Shown here piece after piece: positions 3,208-39,114 of a stretch of 64,000 nucleotides of DNA (positions within the stretch are counted from its first letter, which is position 1; every line of letters starts with the position of its first letter). Origin of the DNA: a virus; the IMG/VR virus record IMGVR_UViG_3300044951_001887, positions 5,168-69,167 of that record; one strand, given 5' to 3'. Below the pieces are notes generated by a model. The model did no database searches. It was not told the origin of the DNA and saw only the letters and a list, made by a program, of their open reading frames with translations. Position numbers and translations under genes: made by a program.

Positions 3208-4625
3208 GTGAGGCCGCAGAGGCAGAAAAGTCAATCGTTGCAATGATCGGCGATAGCTATTCTGGCGTCTCTGAGCCGGTTGAAGAGGTTGAAAAGTTCG
3301 ATTTCGAGGCGGACTTTCAGACGGCGGTCGCCGCTTTGGTTTGTCGCGATGGCGAGTTCATGCGTCGCGCTTCGCATCTGATCAAACCCGACTATTTCGA
3401 AAACGTCGGCGAGGCGTCTTTAGTGAATCTGGTCGTTCAGCATTACGCGAAATATCGTTGTATTCCCGACAACGTGACGACGGCCAGTTTGATACGTGAC
3501 GCGGCGAAGTCTGGGGCGATCAGAAAGGACGTTTTGCCGGAACTTTTGACTGCCAGAAAGAAGATCATCAGCGACGCCTTAACCAGCCGTGAGTACGTTG
3601 AGGACAAGCTTGCGCAGTTCGTTCGTCACCAAGCGGTCGGTGCGGCGATCATGAAGTCGGTCGCTTTGCGTGAAACGGGCCAGTTCGACAAGATCGAAAA
3701 GCTGATGAAGGCCGCGATCGAAATTGGGCTGAATGAGGATGGTGACGCGTATAGCTACTTTGACAACATCGATGAGCGAACAGAGGCACGTCTTGATATT
3801 GCGTCGGGCAAGAGACAGCCGCAGGGCATCACTACTGGCGTTATGAAACTGGACGAATTGCTGTATCACCGGGGTTGGGGCCGCAAAGAGCTGGCTTCAA
3901 TTATGGGTGGTGCAAAGTCGGGCAAAACGACGGCGCTGATCAACTTCGCAAAGGCCGCTTCGCTTGCCGGCCACAACGTTCTGTACATCACGTTGGAGGT
4001 TGGATCGGGCATTGTGTCTGACCGTATGGATGCTTCTCTGACAGAAACGCTAATGAGCGAGCTGGCCGTCAAGCTGCACCATGTTCGCGAAAAGGTCGAG
4101 TTGGCAAGAAAGAAGGCTGGAAAGCTGGAAATCTGTGAGTACGCTTCCGGCACGATGAACGGCAAGATGTTGCGTGAGCGAATCGAGTCCTACAAGTCAC
4201 CGGGCCGCAACAAAGACGGCAGCGTTCGCGCTCCAATCAAGTTCGATCTGGTGGTCGTTGACTATGCAGACATCATGGCGCCAATCTTTCGAACGAACGA
4301 CGCCATTGAAAATTCCAAGTCGGTCTATGTTGACTTGCGGGCTATCGCTTTCGAGGAAGACGTAGCGATGCTGACGGCAACGCAAACGAACAGGGAAGGG
4401 CACAAGGCAACGGTTGCGCTTGCCACACACGTTTCGGATGACTTCAACAAGGTTAGGACTGTCGACTTGATGATTTCAATCAACAAGACGGAAGAAGAGG
4501 CGCGTGACGGGGTGGCTCGTCTGTACTTTGCCGCCTCGCGAAATCAGCGCTCCGGCTTTACTGTCGTGGTCAAGCAAAACTTGGAATGTATGCAGTTCAT
4601 CACTGGCGTTCTGAGGATCGAATAG
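3204..4625 (+). CDS. DnaB-like replicative helicase
   Basis: GGAKSGKT Walker A, YITLE, VVVDYAD, TATQTNR. Confidence 0.9.
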   Translation: MSEAAEAEKSIVAMIGDSYSGVSEPVEEVEKFDFEADFQTAVAALVCRDGEFMRRASHLIKPDYFENVGEASLVNLVVQHYAKYRCIPDNVTTASLIRDAAKSGAIRKDVLPELLTARKKIISDALTSREYVEDKLAQFVRHQAVGAAIMKSVALRETGQFDKIEKLMKAAIEIGLNEDGDAYSYFDNIDERTEARLDIASGKRQPQGITTGVMKLDELLYHRGWGRKELASIMGGAKSGKTTALINFAKAASLAGHNVLYITLEVGSGIVSDRMDASLTETLMSELAVKLHHVREKVELARKKAGKLEICEYASGTMNGKMLRERIESYKSPGRNKDGSVRAPIKFDLVVVDYADIMAPIFRTNDAIENSKSVYVDLRAIAFEEDVAMLTATQTNREGHKATVALATHVSDDFNKVRTVDLMISINKTEEEARDGVARLYFAASRNQRSGFTVVVKQNLECMQFITGVLRIE

Positions 4626-9506: not shown

Positions 9507-9667
9507 GATATTTGTAACAAAATCAAAGACTTAGCGGAAATTCGATAGGTCTGATGATTTGTTTGACGCCTTCAACTACACTCTATCCCACTCTAAGACG
9601 CTCACAAAAACGTCAAAGACGACCGTATGACATGCCGTTAGGCAGAATGTTGGGAAGGGGTGGTCAA

Positions 9668-10759
9668 GTGGCATCGAAAAGAGAGAAGGGCCGAGGTTGG
9701 GAATTTACGGTCAAGCGGGCGGGCTTGTTGGAGAAGCCGCTGATCTTGACGTTCGCTACTGAGGCTGAAGGTGATCTGTTTTGCAAAAACTTGGAATCGT
9801 TGCTTGATCGCGGCATTGTGCCGACCGAGTATCGACCCAAGACCCGCGTTGTTTCGTTCGGCGATTTATCTGGGCAGTATTTGCGAGACGCGCAGGTATC
9901 AACAAACGACCGGGAGATTCTGCGCAGCCTGTCAGAAATAGCCAACACGCCGCTTTTGGCGATCAACGTCGAATGGGTAGACGCACAGGTTCAGCGAATG
10001 AAGCGCGAACTACATTACCGACCAGCAACGATTCGAAAGAAGATCGGGGCAATGGCCCGGTGCTGTGACTGGGGCATTCGACGCAAGTTACTCATTCTGC
10101 CAGACGCCCCATTTCGAACGCTGCCAGAAGGTTATGCGGCATACACCGAGACGGATGCTGCTTTGGCTGGCGGGGCGAAGTCGGACACGGAGCGCGACCG
10201 TCGCCTGGAGTCTGGGGAAGAGTTGGAGATTCGCAAAGTGTTGGAGCGCGGGGTTCTGTCAAGAAAGCAAAGAGAGTTCACCATTCCCAACCGTCAGGAC
10301 ATTGTTGCGCTATTTGAAGTGCTGCTTGAGACCGCCATGCGTTTGCGCGAGGCGTACACGCTGACGTCCGATCAAATCGACTTCAAAAGACAAACGATCA
10401 ATCTGGACAAGACTAAAAATGGAGACAAGCGACAGGTGCCGATGTCCTCTATTGCCGTCAAGGTGCTGCGACCGTATTCCAAAAAAGATGGGTACATATT
10501 CCCGTGGCTAGAAGAGCAGGGCGGCAACCTGAAGCTGACGACGAATTATCTCAGCAAGATGTTTGCCCAAGTCTTTGCCGACGCCGGTTGTCCGGATTTG
10601 CACACGCATGACTTGCGGCATGAGGCGACGAGTCGCCTATTTGAACGCACAGACTTTAAGGCGGAAGAGATTATGAAATGCACCGGACACAAGTCGCATC
10701 GGATGGTGATGCGCTATCTGAATCTACGCGGTTCCAATCTCGCCGCTAGACTCTGGTAG
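9668..10759 (+). CDS. int: Tyrosine recombinase/integrase
   Basis: TAMRLRE, TKNG, HDLRHEA, GH, RY catalytic residues; probable GTG start at 9668. Confidence 0.95.
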   Translation: MASKREKGRGWEFTVKRAGLLEKPLILTFATEAEGDLFCKNLESLLDRGIVPTEYRPKTRVVSFGDLSGQYLRDAQVSTNDREILRSLSEIANTPLLAINVEWVDAQVQRMKRELHYRPATIRKKIGAMARCCDWGIRRKLLILPDAPFRTLPEGYAAYTETDAALAGGAKSDTERDRRLESGEELEIRKVLERGVLSRKQREFTIPNRQDIVALFEVLLETAMRLREAYTLTSDQIDFKRQTINLDKTKNGDKRQVPMSSIAVKVLRPYSKKDGYIFPWLEEQGGNLKLTTNYLSKMFAQVFADAGCPDLHTHDLRHEATSRLFERTDFKAEEIMKCTGHKSHRMVMRYLNLRGSNLAARLW

Positions 10760-36766: not shown

Positions 36767-37258
36767 ATGGGTGTGTTGATGACATTGATTGATTCTGTAT
36801 CGGACGATCAGTTCGCGTTGTTTGTGAGTGAAGCGAACCGCATTTCCGATGTAACGAAAATGGTTGGGTATGCGCCGTCAAGAAAATCGGACTGCGTTGT
36901 GTCGGATAGAATAAAGAAAATGTCGCTAAGCACCAGACATTTCAAAAATTGGAATTCGATGGCAAGCGTTCCGACAGATGAGCTTCTTGTTGTTGGGTCA
37001 GCGAGAAATAATCAGACAATCAAGAAGCGTCTGATTAAGGAAAATGTGCTGCCGTATGTCTGTGTGATTTGTGGTAATGATGGAAAGTGGATGGGCGAAG
37101 AGCTAGTTCTTCATCTTGATCACAAGAATGGAAATAATGATGACAATCGTTTTTCTAATTTAAGGTTTTTGTGTCCAAATTGTCACGCGCAAACTGACAC
37201 ATACGGCGGTAGAAATAACAAGATTATAAATGGGTGTGCGGCTACGATGGTGGAGTAG
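36767..37258 (+). CDS. HNH endonuclease within the tRNA cluster
   Basis: CVICG..LDHKNG..DN..NLRFLCPNCH. Confidence 0.9.
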   Translation: MGVLMTLIDSVSDDQFALFVSEANRISDVTKMVGYAPSRKSDCVVSDRIKKMSLSTRHFKNWNSMASVPTDELLVVGSARNNQTIKKRLIKENVLPYVCVICGNDGKWMGEELVLHLDHKNGNNDDNRFSNLRFLCPNCHAQTDTYGGRNNKIINGCAATMVE

Positions 37259-37323: not shown

Positions 37324-37408
37324 TCGTCTGTGGTGAAATTGGTAAACACACCGGCTAATGGGGCCGGCGTCGAAAGACATGGGAGTTCGAGTCTCTCCGG
37401 GCGGACCA
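37324..37408 (+). tRNA. Leu-type tRNA body with an aberrant anticodon loop (TAATGGG)
   Basis: GTG-AAATTGGTAAA-CAC D arm, long variable arm, GGGAG-TTCGAGT-CTCTC, A-CCA. Confidence 0.7.
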
Positions 37409-37624: not shown

Positions 37625-37950
37625 ATTGTCGTAATTCCTTCTAAGCGAAGGCATGTCGGACTCGGGGGCAGCACCCGACAGGTCCACCAAAGGGGCGTTT
37701 ACTCTGTCAAATGCAGGGTGTTCAACGTTTCAGTCTTACTGAAGGGTTGGCAGGAGCGTCCCTCTGATGGGCCTGACGCAGTTTCGACGGCGTGAGATAG
37801 CAGATGAGGCGACACGTCAGGCGATCGACGTAAATGAAGCAATCGTTTAAATGCAAACGACGAGCAGTACACTGTTCTACAAGCCGCCTAAATAACGGCC
37901 AGAACCGAGAACTCCACCACAGCGTAAGCTGCTTGGGAACAGAAGGTGGA
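37625..37950 (+). ncRNA. ssrA: Circularly permuted two-piece tmRNA; tag (A)ANDEQYTVLQAA
   Basis: The acceptor piece ends CAGGTCC-A-CCA at 37689 and the coding piece starts GGGCCTG at 37769 (G3.U pair). TTTCGAC, pk1 (ACGTC/GACGT; AGGCGAT/ATCGTTT) and the tag frame at 37853-37891 are present. Outer ends are approximate. Confidence 0.9.
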
Positions 37951-37973
37951 GACATACATAAAGGGCTAATTCT

Positions 37974-38726
37974 ATGTTTTTGGATGCAATATGCACTTCT
38001 CGGTATTACAAATTAATCAACCACTATCGTACAAACGCGATTGGAGAGAAGCATCACATTATTCCGAAATCAATGGGTGGCTCAAATGACGCTACTAATT
38101 TAGTTGTCGTTCCGGAGAGGGTGCATTTCATTCTTCATTGGCTGCTTACGCGCATGACAACCGGCGATAACAAAGTAAAAATGCACCGCGCATTTTGGAG
38201 AATGATGAATCCTCAAAATGTTAAGCATAACAGGACTTATAGAGTCACTTCAAGGCAATACGAAAAGACAAGGGCTTACGTCAAAAGAATAATGATTGAG
38301 AATAACCCCATGTTTAGCGCAGAAACAAAAGCTAAAAAGACTGGCGTAAAGCGTCCAGAGCAAGCAGAAGTTGCTAGGCTGGTAAATGAAAAACGGTGGG
38401 CTGGAGAGCGGGAACCGAAAGCTTACGAACACCAGTGTAAAGAGTGTGGCTGTGACTTTAAAACGTCAACTCCGAGCAGTAAGTTTTGTACGATAAGTTG
38501 TTCTTCAACTTATTTCTCCAGAGTAAGTGAAAACTCTCTATCAAAGGGAAATCTAGGAAAGCCGTCATGGAATGCGGGGAAGAAATGCGGTCACTCTAGC
38601 GACAATGGTAAAAATGGAGCGCTGAAGTTATCTGAAAAAGTGACTGGACGTAAGATGGCGAAGAGGCCAGACGGGTCCAGATATTGGGTTTATCCAAACG
38701 ACGAGCAGTACCTTGCCGTAGCCTAA
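37974..38726 (+). CDS. HNH endonuclease ending in an ssrA-like tag (NDEQYLAVA)
   Basis: EKHHIIPKSMGGSN..NLV..HF..H.LL; CxxC..CxxxC. Confidence 0.88.
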   Translation: MFLDAICTSRYYKLINHYRTNAIGEKHHIIPKSMGGSNDATNLVVVPERVHFILHWLLTRMTTGDNKVKMHRAFWRMMNPQNVKHNRTYRVTSRQYEKTRAYVKRIMIENNPMFSAETKAKKTGVKRPEQAEVARLVNEKRWAGEREPKAYEHQCKECGCDFKTSTPSSKFCTISCSSTYFSRVSENSLSKGNLGKPSWNAGKKCGHSSDNGKNGALKLSEKVTGRKMAKRPDGSRYWVYPNDEQYLAVA

Positions 38727-38920
38727 TTCGCTACGACTGAGTGGCCGACCAGCTTGGAAACAGAAATGGTCGGAACGAATTTTGTAGGTTGACGGCTGGC
38801 AAGGCTGTCTGGCTTTACCCGGTGAGATTTGCCAATCTCTAGGGCGTCAATGGCAACTACGAAGCGTCTTGCTCGGATGCAGCCCGAAAAGGCTTAGGCG
38901 TTAAACGTCAGAGCAACAAT

Positions 38921-38996
<76 letters not shown>

Positions 38997-39114
38997 TTGG
39001 TGAGTCACTTGGTTCTGCAATCGGCGCCTACCGATGAAATAAACCTTTGAGAGCGAAAGGCGTAGCAGCAGGTGACTCACCAATGGGGTTGTCCCGTTAA
39101 ATATTGGAGGTCAA

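What the first reader, a model, noticed from the sequence alone, without database searches (positions are those of the whole stretch)
37853..38775. HNH endonuclease in the tmRNA locus that carries the tmRNA degradation tag as its own C-terminus
Seen: the tmRNA tag frame (37853-37891, ANDEQYTVLQAA*) and a downstream element (CCACC..GCTTGGGAACAGAA-GGTGG) are followed by an HNH gene. That gene's last codons read NDEQYLAVA*, and a second such element follows (CCGACCA-GCTTGGAAACAGAAA-TGGTCGG). The 17-mer CAAACGACGAGCAGTAC occurs at both 37854 and 38695. Established: ssrA tags direct proteins to ClpXP/ClpAP/Tsp. Inference: the nuclease invaded at the resume codon and supplied a replacement tag and 3' end, leaving the displaced tag fused in frame to the nuclease. 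The result would be a self-destabilising homing endonuclease with a hard-coded degron, and possibly two alternative tag modules.
Basis: partly seen in the sequence, partly recalled or inferred. Interest (0 to 1): 0.9.

Follow-up and report, generated by a model that had tools for sequence, protein, structure and literature searches.

The report
Homing nuclease re-ending a phage tmRNA
A selfish DNA-cutting gene sits behind a lake phage's ribosome-rescue RNA (tmRNA) gene, between a working copy and a stranded second copy of that gene's tag-and-hairpin end, and it reads into the stranded copy, so the nuclease ends in a "destroy-me" tag that is most likely an insertion scar.

Summary
A two-piece tmRNA (tag ANDEQYTVLQAA*, hairpin 37912-37951) is followed by an intact HNH gene (37974-38726). 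Its last nine codons, its stop and the next hairpin (38745-38773) are a second, diverged copy of the tmRNA tag-plus-hairpin module.

New here: the nuclease's C-terminal 45 residues (...TGRK..DGSRYWVYP) form an unnamed module shared by HNH and GIY-YIG homing endonucleases. In IMG/VR, 36 of 42 loci with this module abut a phage two-piece tmRNA. None of 60 loci holding only the HNH domain do.

The tag-derived tail starts exactly where the module normally ends. The joint lies in a 5-base microhomology (CAAAC). One other co-oriented case (L261) also ends in a tag relic, from a foreign tmRNA lineage; another (L268) duplicates only the terminator. A 39%-identical HNH (P0035) also has a tag-like tail.

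Best reading: the scar of an endonuclease-driven gene-end replacement, as known from fungal mitochondrial mobile ORFs. A degron effect is plausible but untested. A second usable tag module is not supported.

Earlier notes of this scan describe the same kind of cassette on other phage DNA.

The parts
37627..37689 (+). tmRNA acceptor piece (T-arm, 3' acceptor strand, ends ...TCCACCA)
   Evidence: Rfam tmRNA_permuted alignment; ARAGORN permuted tmRNA
37769..37951 (+). tmRNA coding piece: 5' acceptor strand GGGCCUG, P2, PK1 hairpin, tag, 3' hairpin
   Evidence: Rfam alignments RF04321 and RF01850
37853..37891 (+). Tag reading frame, copy 1: ANDEQYTVLQAA*
   Evidence: ARAGORN; sequence
37912..37951 (+). 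3' hairpin, copy 1 (stem CTCCACC/GGTGGAG; loop holds GCTTGGGAACAGAA)
   Evidence: Fold -19.4 kcal/mol, z -2.75. The motif YTNGNAACAGAA occurs only twice in the window.
37974..38726 (+). HNH homing endonuclease gene, 250 aa. MobE-like HNH domain, NUMOD3-like linker, Cys4 ribbon, C-terminal module, tag-derived tail.
   Evidence: phrog_655 'homing endonuclease' E 2.4e-28. Pfam HNH_5 24.5 bits, below its cut-off of 27.5. Aligns from M1 with 20 homologues. AF2 mean pLDDT 86.
38556..38696 (+). C-terminal module of the nuclease (G195-P241: GKPSWNAGKK...NGKNGALKLSEKVTGRKMAKRPDGSRYWVYP), shared by tmRNA-associated HNH and GIY-YIG endonucleases
   Evidence: HMMER: 296 hits at E<=1e-3. Alignment A3. 36 of 42 IMG/VR loci with the module lie next to a permuted tmRNA. 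No Pfam family.
38695..38726 (+). Tag, copy 2 (relic): (P)NDEQYLAVA*, read in frame as the nuclease's C-terminus. Joint within TAT CCA AAC | GAC.
   Evidence: Sequence; 17-mer identity; alignments
38745..38773 (+). 3' hairpin, copy 2 (stem CCGACCA/TGGTCGG; loop GCTTGGAAACAGAAA)
   Evidence: Fold; alignment with copy 1
38921..38996 (+). tRNA-Thr(UGU), the downstream flank. In relatives it directly follows tRNA-Tyr.
   Evidence: ARAGORN

Best explanation
The HNH gene is a free-standing homing endonuclease. Its family has swappable nuclease domains (HNH or GIY-YIG) and shares a C-terminal module, presumably DNA-binding, that lives next to the 3' end of phage two-piece tmRNA genes.

In this phage the gene lies co-oriented inside a duplicated 3' end of the tmRNA gene. 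The upstream copy (tag ANDEQYTVLQAA plus hairpin) is contiguous with the tmRNA body and keeps the tmRNA whole. The downstream copy (tag (A)NDEQYLAVA plus hairpin) is stranded.

The arrangement is the scar of a double-strand-break repair or recombination event. One gene end travelled with the nuclease gene and the other was left behind. The right-hand joint formed in the 5-base microhomology CAAAC, between the nuclease's native end (...W-V-Y-P-N) and the start of the tag (A-N-D...). Because the two match codon for codon, the nuclease now reads through the relic tag to the relic's stop codon.

Shown: the anatomy, the family link to tmRNA genes, the native end point of the module, and recurrence in other phages.

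Inferred: homing as the cause, and which copy is the resident one (I lean to the downstream copy, about 60:40). Also inferred: the tail probably makes the protein a ClpXP substrate as a side effect.
For: 1. Anatomy and statistics.

2. The module is native up to ...W.YP. Of the 149 other proteins listed, 34 have the motif within 25 residues of their end. Their tails are 0-20 residues long and unconserved; 12 start with N and 8 with D.

3. Link to tmRNA. Of 42 module loci in IMG/VR, 36 have a permuted tmRNA beside the gene: 30 by ARAGORN, 3 more with aragorn -ps95, and 3 more by Rfam. Rfam confirmed 20 of 20 loci tested. They carry at least 18 different tags. Control: 0 of 60 loci with only the HNH domain had any tRNA or tmRNA.

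4. Sporadic presence. No tmRNA in 21 related phage records. None in 23 syntenic metagenome loci; 11 of these have a compact tRNA cluster after the RNR gene, and in 4 of them tRNA-Tyr and tRNA-Thr are 2 nt apart.

5. The two copies differ as much as modules of different phages. Copy 1 against copy 2 is 64/84. Copy 1 against L282 is 69/93. Copy 2 against L285 is 67/88.

6. Recurrence in co-oriented loci. In L261 a permuted tmRNA (tag ANDSQFRAAA) is followed by a GIY-YIG-like gene ending ...WIYPDSVYAKAA*. That tail matches the tag of another phage's tmRNA (L270, ANDSVYAMAA; z 3.9, 0 of 500) and not its own tmRNA. In L268 the tmRNA terminator and about 25 nt beyond it are duplicated after the nuclease gene (z 5.7, 0 of 500).

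7. The same design is documented for fungal mitochondrial mobile ORFs: inserted C-terminal, mORF, native C-terminal (passages of PMC3630166).
Against: - No HNH-free allele of this tmRNA was found in any collection. Foreign origin, direction and homing are therefore inferred by analogy.
- The first 17 bases of the two copies are identical while the rest is 43/60 identical (P about 0.004 at that rate). This fits a crossover point, gene conversion or an internal duplication better than simple foreign origin.
- In the commoner convergent arrangement, 16 of 18 loci show no relic module. End replacement is thus not a general trait of the family.
- Tag-derived tails in frame recur (window, L261, P0035). 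This could reflect selection and not only microhomology.
- The module's DNA-binding role has no structural support.
Confidence: 0.7

Rival explanations
1. Selected degron. The in-frame tmRNA tag is kept by selection because it sends the nuclease to ClpXP (with SspB), giving a short-lived, self-limiting homing endonuclease.
For: - The tail keeps 9 of the 10 tag residues and sits at the free C-terminus.
- Genuine tags of related phage tmRNAs have the same form, including a ...VA end: ANDSRFLMVA in L269 and ANDEQFLMAANA in L274.
- Tag-like tails in frame are also seen in P0035 (...YSDAQFRAAA, 39% identical over the full length) and in L261 (...YPDSVYAKAA).
- ssrA tags and their LVA/AAV variants destabilise proteins when fused to a C-terminus (passages of PMC9382460).
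- T4-type homing endonucleases are held down by several layers of control (passages of PMC2988022).
Against: - I found the other cases by their tag-like tails, so out-of-frame fusions would have been missed.
- The codon-level match YP-N/D against A-N-D gives in-frame joints without selection.
- Of 34 family tails, 31 are not tag-like, and the family's usual arrangement has no tag tail.
- The L261 gene carries an in-frame stop and is decaying, yet keeps its tail.
- The last three residues are AVA, not LAA.
- No stability data exist.
Confidence: 0.17
2. Internal duplication. The tag-plus-hairpin module duplicated within this phage's own tmRNA gene and the copies then drifted apart. The nuclease gene landed between them, or caused the duplication, and brought no foreign end.
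For: The copies share 17 of 17 identical bases at their start. Each copy is about as close to the other as to any outside module.
Against: - After the 17-mer, 43/60 bases are identical, with 23 gapped positions and 7-bp stems of different sequence. That is as far apart as different phages.
- In L261 the relic clearly comes from another tmRNA lineage.
Confidence: 0.1
3. A second functional tag. Copy 2 serves as an alternative tag module of the tmRNA.
For: The relic keeps an open tag frame, its stop codon and a well-formed hairpin with the conserved AACAGAA motif.
Against: - It lies 840 nt from the tmRNA body.
- The resume codon is GCA changed to CCA.
- There is no similarity to PK1 or to the region upstream of the tag.
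- Only one tmRNA is called.
Confidence: 0.02

Closest known systems
Mobile endonuclease ORFs (mORFs) of fungal mitochondria that create gene hybrids (Allomyces macrogynus atp6; Glomus atp6, atp9, cox2, nad3). PMC3630166, passages read.
   Same: The order is gene core, inserted replacement end, endonuclease ORF, displaced native end. The two ends are strongly diverged. In-phase fusions of the ORF with neighbouring gene parts occur.
   Different: Here the host gene is an RNA gene (tmRNA) of a phage. The nuclease is HNH with a different C-terminal module. The fusion is to the downstream stranded end, which happens to encode a proteolysis tag.
Phage T4 SegB, a free-standing GIY-YIG homing endonuclease in the tRNA gene cluster. 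PMC2330249, abstract read.
   Same: A free-standing nuclease gene in a phage tRNA cluster. It recognises a conserved motif of structured-RNA genes and carries neighbouring RNA genes along.
   Different: No duplicated gene end, a different nuclease family, and no tmRNA.
T4-type MobE/MobD HNH endonucleases. PMC2988022, passages read.
   Same: The same kind of N-terminal HNH domain. tblastn hits of the sister protein P0035 fall on genes annotated mobE, mobD or homing endonuclease.
   Different: Those sit at nrd and other protein genes and lack the ...TGRK..DGSRYWVYP module.
Group I introns with LAGLIDADG endonuclease genes in the tmRNA T-loop. PMC11915505, passages read.
   Same: A homing endonuclease exploiting the tmRNA gene without destroying it.
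   Different: Those rely on splicing and sit in the T-loop. Here there is no intron; a duplicated gene end does the job, at the tag.
Engineered ssrA-tag fusions (LAA, LVA, AAV). PMC9382460, passages read.
   Same: A tmRNA tag hard-coded at a protein's C-terminus.
   Different: Those are designed and tested. Here the tag is natural, ends AVA, and is untested.

Membership tests
Two-piece (permuted) tmRNA, Rfam RF04321 / RF01850 | Score above the curated cut-off, with acceptor piece before coding piece and a tag frame | tested here: met
   133.3 bits (cut-off 47) and 102.7 bits (cut-off 84). ARAGORN permuted call with tag.
HNH endonuclease (Pfam HNH/HNH_5; PHROG 655 homing endonuclease) | HNH motif (His-His ... 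Asn ... His) and a family profile match | tested here: met
   phrog_655 E 2.4e-28 over residues 10-221. H27, H28, N42, H51 and H55 are invariant in 21 sequences. Pfam HNH_5 scores only 24.5 bits, below its cut-off of 27.5.
Free-standing homing endonuclease | Sporadic presence among related genomes at a conserved locus | tested here: met
   Relatives lack both the HNH and the tmRNA: 0 of 21 records and 0 of 23 loci.
Free-standing homing endonuclease | Site-specific cleavage of the nuclease-free allele and biased inheritance | not testable with these tools
   Needs enzyme assays and phage crosses.
tmRNA-associated endonuclease module family (defined here) | C-terminal ...NG.KGA.K.S..V.GRK....DG...W.YP module, with the gene abutting the 3' end of a permuted tmRNA | tested here: met
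   The window protein aligns over the module. 36 of 42 loci abut a tmRNA.
mORF-type gene-end replacement | Order: gene core, replacement end, endonuclease ORF, displaced end | tested here: met
mORF-type gene-end replacement | The displaced end matches the end of nuclease-free relatives, while the inserted end is foreign | tested here: inconclusive
   No nuclease-free relative with this tmRNA was found. The copies are as far apart as different phages. In L261 the relic is foreign to the resident tmRNA.
ssrA-type C-terminal degron | Tag sequence at the free C-terminus | tested here: met
   The ORF ends ...NDEQYLAVA*.
ssrA-type C-terminal degron | Terminal residues of LAA type recognised by ClpX | tested here: inconclusive
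   The tail ends AVA. A related phage tmRNA tag ends LMVA (L269). The last three residues are critical in E. coli (PMC9382460).
ssrA-type C-terminal degron | ClpXP-dependent instability | not testable with these tools
   Needs half-life measurements.

The most novel reading that the evidence does not exclude
Tag-derived tails on tmRNA-targeting homing endonucleases are working degrons kept by selection. By landing at the resume codon, the nuclease acquires the cell's own destruction tag and becomes short-lived. That would limit damage to the phage and host genomes. Such a proteolytic layer of control is not among those described in the passages of the T4 review I read (PMC2988022). It would have arisen more than once: in the window, in L261 and in P0035.
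Probability: 0.15. Interest if true: 0.8.

Novelty: new variant of a known kind. Interest (0 to 1): 0.55.

Why it matters
- It shows how a selfish nuclease gene can sit inside an essential-type RNA gene without an intron: it brings or duplicates the gene's end. This design is documented for fungal mitochondrial protein genes, and my searches did not find it described for phage tmRNA.
- It defines a sequence module that marks tmRNA-associated endonucleases. That module gives a handle for finding their target site, and perhaps for explaining how tmRNA genes and their tags are exchanged between phages.
- It offers a cheap, direct test of whether a natural, hard-coded ssrA tag limits a nuclease.

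Tried and rejected
Searches for an HNH-free allele or close relatives of this tmRNA:
- blastn against cultured phages hit only tRNA-Thr.
- The 17-mer in IMG/VR gave 5 chance hits without tmRNA.
- TAAATGCAAACGACGAG in IMG/VR gave 21 loci. Twenty lie inside unrelated protein genes and one (L144) is an unrelated phage tmRNA.
- A 19-mer in GTDB genomes gave 7 chance hits.
- A 20-mer in metagenomes gave 0 hits.
- RNR-based loci in metagenomes had no tmRNA: 0 of the 23 loci given to ARAGORN, out of 80 returned. The 630-nt Tyr-Thr gap of L161 has no Rfam tmRNA.
- The hairpin-loop pattern in IMG/VR gave 19 loci. In four the motif lies in the 3' domain of a permuted tmRNA (L306, L307, L311, L321). L306, the one whose ORFs I read, has no endonuclease-like ORF behind its tmRNA. 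None is close to the window's tmRNA.

Reads:
- No joint skipping the HNH appeared in the 4 runs laid, which are contigs only.
- RNA-library contigs cover the HNH and the relic at depth 2-4, like their flanks. This does not show transcription.

Host search:
- RF01850 in 151 genomes of one class gave 0 matches over the cut-off. The sample says nothing about the host.
- Two of those genomes (G164, G062) are unpublished. Only this null tally includes them.

Structure:
- Foldseek against the PDB gave nothing at E<=1e-3.
- VIA-align wide gave a best Z of 4.8, on helices of residues 3-81 only.
- I therefore make no claim about the module's fold.

Other points:
- The large multi-repeat hits are not endonucleases. 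P0030 has PD40 repeats and P0032 a TIG domain (2 of 2 tested).
- The word-based search with the C-terminal 65 aa found only the window's own protein. HMMER was needed.
- Similarity between the tmRNA body and the 3' part of the HNH is not significant.
- A relic module beyond convergent nuclease genes was not significant in 16 of 18 loci; two reached z 3.2.
- An assembly artefact and a chance repeat are rejected.
The supplements of PMC11915505 (tmRNA lists) might hold related phage tmRNAs.

Full report
WHAT IS THERE

The window is part of a 69-kb IMG/VR virus record, estimated 66% complete. It holds a replication module: DnaB, ligase, a DnaE-type polymerase, SbcC, RNR, ThyX and RNA ligase.

Behind the RNR gene lies an RNA gene cluster: tRNA-Met, Tyr, His, a permuted tmRNA, Thr and Arg. 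Endonuclease genes are interspersed.

The tmRNA is solid. Rfam gives tmRNA_permuted 133 bits and beta_tmRNA 103 bits, both above their cut-offs. Its tag is ANDEQYTVLQAA* (37853-37891). A hairpin at 37912-37951 follows.

Twenty-two bases later the HNH ORF starts (37974). The protein aligns from its first residue with 20 homologues, and the HNH residues are invariant. The database's 217-aa gene call (P0001) starts too late.

The ORF ends ...YWVYPNDEQYLAVA* at 38726. A second hairpin follows at 38745-38773.

THE REPEAT IS REAL

- The 17-mer occurs exactly twice (0 of 100 shuffles gave two).
- The whole module aligns at z 7.1 (0 of 500).
- The hairpin loops match on their own (2 of 500).
- The stems differ in sequence but both pair.
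- Similarity stops at the second base of the resume codon; upstream it is not significant.
- After the 17-mer only 43 of 60 aligned bases are identical, with 23 gapped positions.
- Contigs from four other sequencing runs in three studies cover both junctions without a difference. The stretch is held by lake-water metagenomes in 21 studies (only four runs were laid).

WHAT THE NUCLEASE IS

PHROG 655 'homing endonuclease' matches residues 10-221. The closest full-length homologues (190-200 aa, up to 50% identity) end about 55 residues earlier. None of the 20 has the tail.

A word-based search with the last 65 residues found nothing else. An exhaustive HMMER search with the last 80 residues found 296 proteins.

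After setting aside large beta-propeller-type proteins, the hits are small HNH, GIY-YIG or NUMOD3-bearing proteins. They share one C-terminal module: G.PAWNKG..NP.SA.NGRKGA.KQS.TVTGRK...R.DGS..W.YP. Pfam has no family for it.

In 34 of the 149 other listed proteins this motif lies within 25 residues of the end. What follows it is short and unconserved, and most often starts with N (12) or D (8).

The window protein is therefore native up to ...W-V-Y-P(-N). The tmRNA-derived part begins exactly there: TAT CCA AAC GAC in the nuclease against GCA AAC GAC in the tmRNA. The shared bases are CAAAC, in the same codon register.

THE FAMILY LIVES AT tmRNA GENES

A search of IMG/VR with a module alignment returned 42 loci.
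- ARAGORN finds a permuted tmRNA beside the gene in 30.
- A slightly lower ARAGORN threshold adds 3.
- Rfam adds 3 more. That makes 36 of 42, with at least 18 different tags.
- Rfam confirmed 20 of 20 loci tested.
- In 35 of the 36 the nuclease gene converges on the tmRNA. In the 15 loci measured, it stops 1-67 nt beyond the tag's stop, at or just after the tmRNA's 3' hairpin.
- One locus (L268) is co-oriented.
- Loci that share only the HNH domain never have a tRNA or tmRNA nearby (0 of 60 checked, out of 80 returned).

The motif YTNGNAACAGAA, present in both window hairpins and nowhere else in the window, recurs in the 3' domain of several of these tmRNAs. It also occurs in L306, a tmRNA with no endonuclease-like ORF behind it. 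It is thus a tmRNA feature, and copy 2 is a true tmRNA end.

RELATIVES

Phages with 63-74% identical polymerase, or about 70% identical RNR, have the same RNR-tRNA synteny. They lack the tmRNA and, where I read the ORFs (L161), any nuclease gene between the tRNAs.

In four of these loci tRNA-Tyr and tRNA-Thr are 2 nt apart. The whole block from tRNA-His through the tmRNA and HNH to the relic is therefore an insertion specific to this lineage.

CO-ORIENTED CASES

L261, another phage, has a permuted tmRNA (tag ANDSQFRAAA). A GIY-YIG-like gene follows, broken by one in-frame stop. Its module ends ...WIYPDSVYAKAA*.

That tail aligns significantly with the tag of a different phage's tmRNA (L270, ANDSVYAMAA; z 3.9, 0 of 500). 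It does not align with its own tmRNA. The two ends therefore come from different lineages.

L268 has the tmRNA terminator and about 25 nt beyond it repeated after the nuclease gene (z 5.7).

P0035, an HNH 39% identical to the window's over its full length, ends ...YWVYSDAQFRAAA. Its genomic context could not be fetched.

In convergent loci a relic module beyond the gene is not detectable in 16 of 18.

MECHANISM

The anatomy equals the gene hybrids made by mobile endonuclease ORFs in fungal mitochondria: gene core, inserted end, ORF, native end (PMC3630166).

I infer a break in or near the tag of a tmRNA gene. Repair copied a nuclease-bearing allele from the left. The right side closed in the CAAAC microhomology.

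The upstream module keeps the tmRNA functional. The downstream one is a relic that now supplies the nuclease's last codons, its stop and a 3' hairpin.

No promoter-like or terminator-like site separates the tmRNA from the HNH. Co-transcription is likely, but that is inference.

Which copy is native cannot be decided. Copy 2's tag has the family's usual 10-residue form (compare ANDEQFLMAANA, ANDSRFLMVA), while copy 1's 12-residue tag is unusual. This mildly favours copy 2 as the older resident. The 17 identical bases remain unexplained; a crossover or conversion tract is my best guess.

THE DEGRON IDEA

Nine of ten tag residues at a free C-terminus would probably be seen by ClpXP and SspB. ssrA tags work when fused to other proteins, and the last three residues matter most (PMC9382460).

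Against that, the end here is AVA, nothing has been measured, and the in-frame fusion has a neutral explanation. The AF2 model gives the tail a short helix at moderate confidence, which says nothing about accessibility.

I rate a measurable destabilising side effect at roughly even odds, and selection for it at about 0.15.

KNOWN AND NEW

Phage two-piece tmRNAs are known (PMC9004378). So are endonuclease genes in tmRNA introns (PMC11915505), free-standing endonucleases in phage tRNA clusters (PMC2330249) and mORF gene hybrids.

My searches (listings and the passages named) found no description of endonuclease-driven end replacement at phage tmRNA genes, or of the module.

Earlier notes of this scan report the same kind of cassette on other phage DNA, including one with an LAA tail judged a scar. 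I used them as leads only.

Noticed in passing
window 38776-38842 (+): Right after hairpin 2 a short frame reads ...GRNEFCRLTAGKAVWLYPVRFANL*. It resembles the end of the nuclease module (TGRK...DG...W.YP plus a short tail). W.YP occurs only 4 times in all six frames of the window, and two of them are 125 nt apart here. It may be a relic of an older nuclease gene end. The nucleotide alignment is not significant.
   Followed up: partly
window 36767-37258 (+): Another HNH gene (phrog_10822, E 3.9e-41) sits between tRNA-Met and tRNA-Tyr. Its last 27 nt overlap the start of tRNA-Tyr (37232). The syntenic tRNA clusters of relatives leave no room for a gene there.
   Followed up: partly
window 37324-37408 (+): An 85-nt tRNA is called His with anticodon ATG by ARAGORN. 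Its Rfam tRNA score is low (35.6 bits). Both the length and the anticodon are odd for tRNA-His.
   Followed up: no
window 35492, 36183, 36604, 39534 (+): A repeated promoter-like element, A(A/C)ATAAGTCA-N4-TGA(C/T)T..., occurs four times; two copies end in TATAAT. It flanks the RNA gene cluster. One copy is a sigma-70-like hit.
   Followed up: no
window 37808-37839: In two lake metatranscriptome runs, very deep short contigs (depth up to 25,000) match this PK1 region with 3 differences and then diverge. They come from another organism's abundant tmRNA, possibly host-like.
   Followed up: no
L261 3734-4510: The GIY-YIG-like nuclease gene behind that phage's tmRNA is interrupted by one in-frame TAA (3992-3994), so it looks like a decaying gene. 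It still keeps the tag-derived tail.
   Followed up: partly
L285, L282 and protein P0082: Some convergent nuclease genes end ...YPTTSV(T/A)E. In L285 this tail lies on the antisense of the tmRNA motif GGTAACAGAAGTGG, so the gene end overlaps the tmRNA's 3' domain there.
   Followed up: partly
window 9554-10759 (+): A tyrosine-integrase-like ORF (phrog_1, E 3e-36) lies inside an otherwise lytic-looking replication module.
   Followed up: no
window 38994-39086: A 23-nt inverted repeat (87% complementary, 47 nt apart) starts at the 3' end of tRNA-Thr.
   Followed up: no
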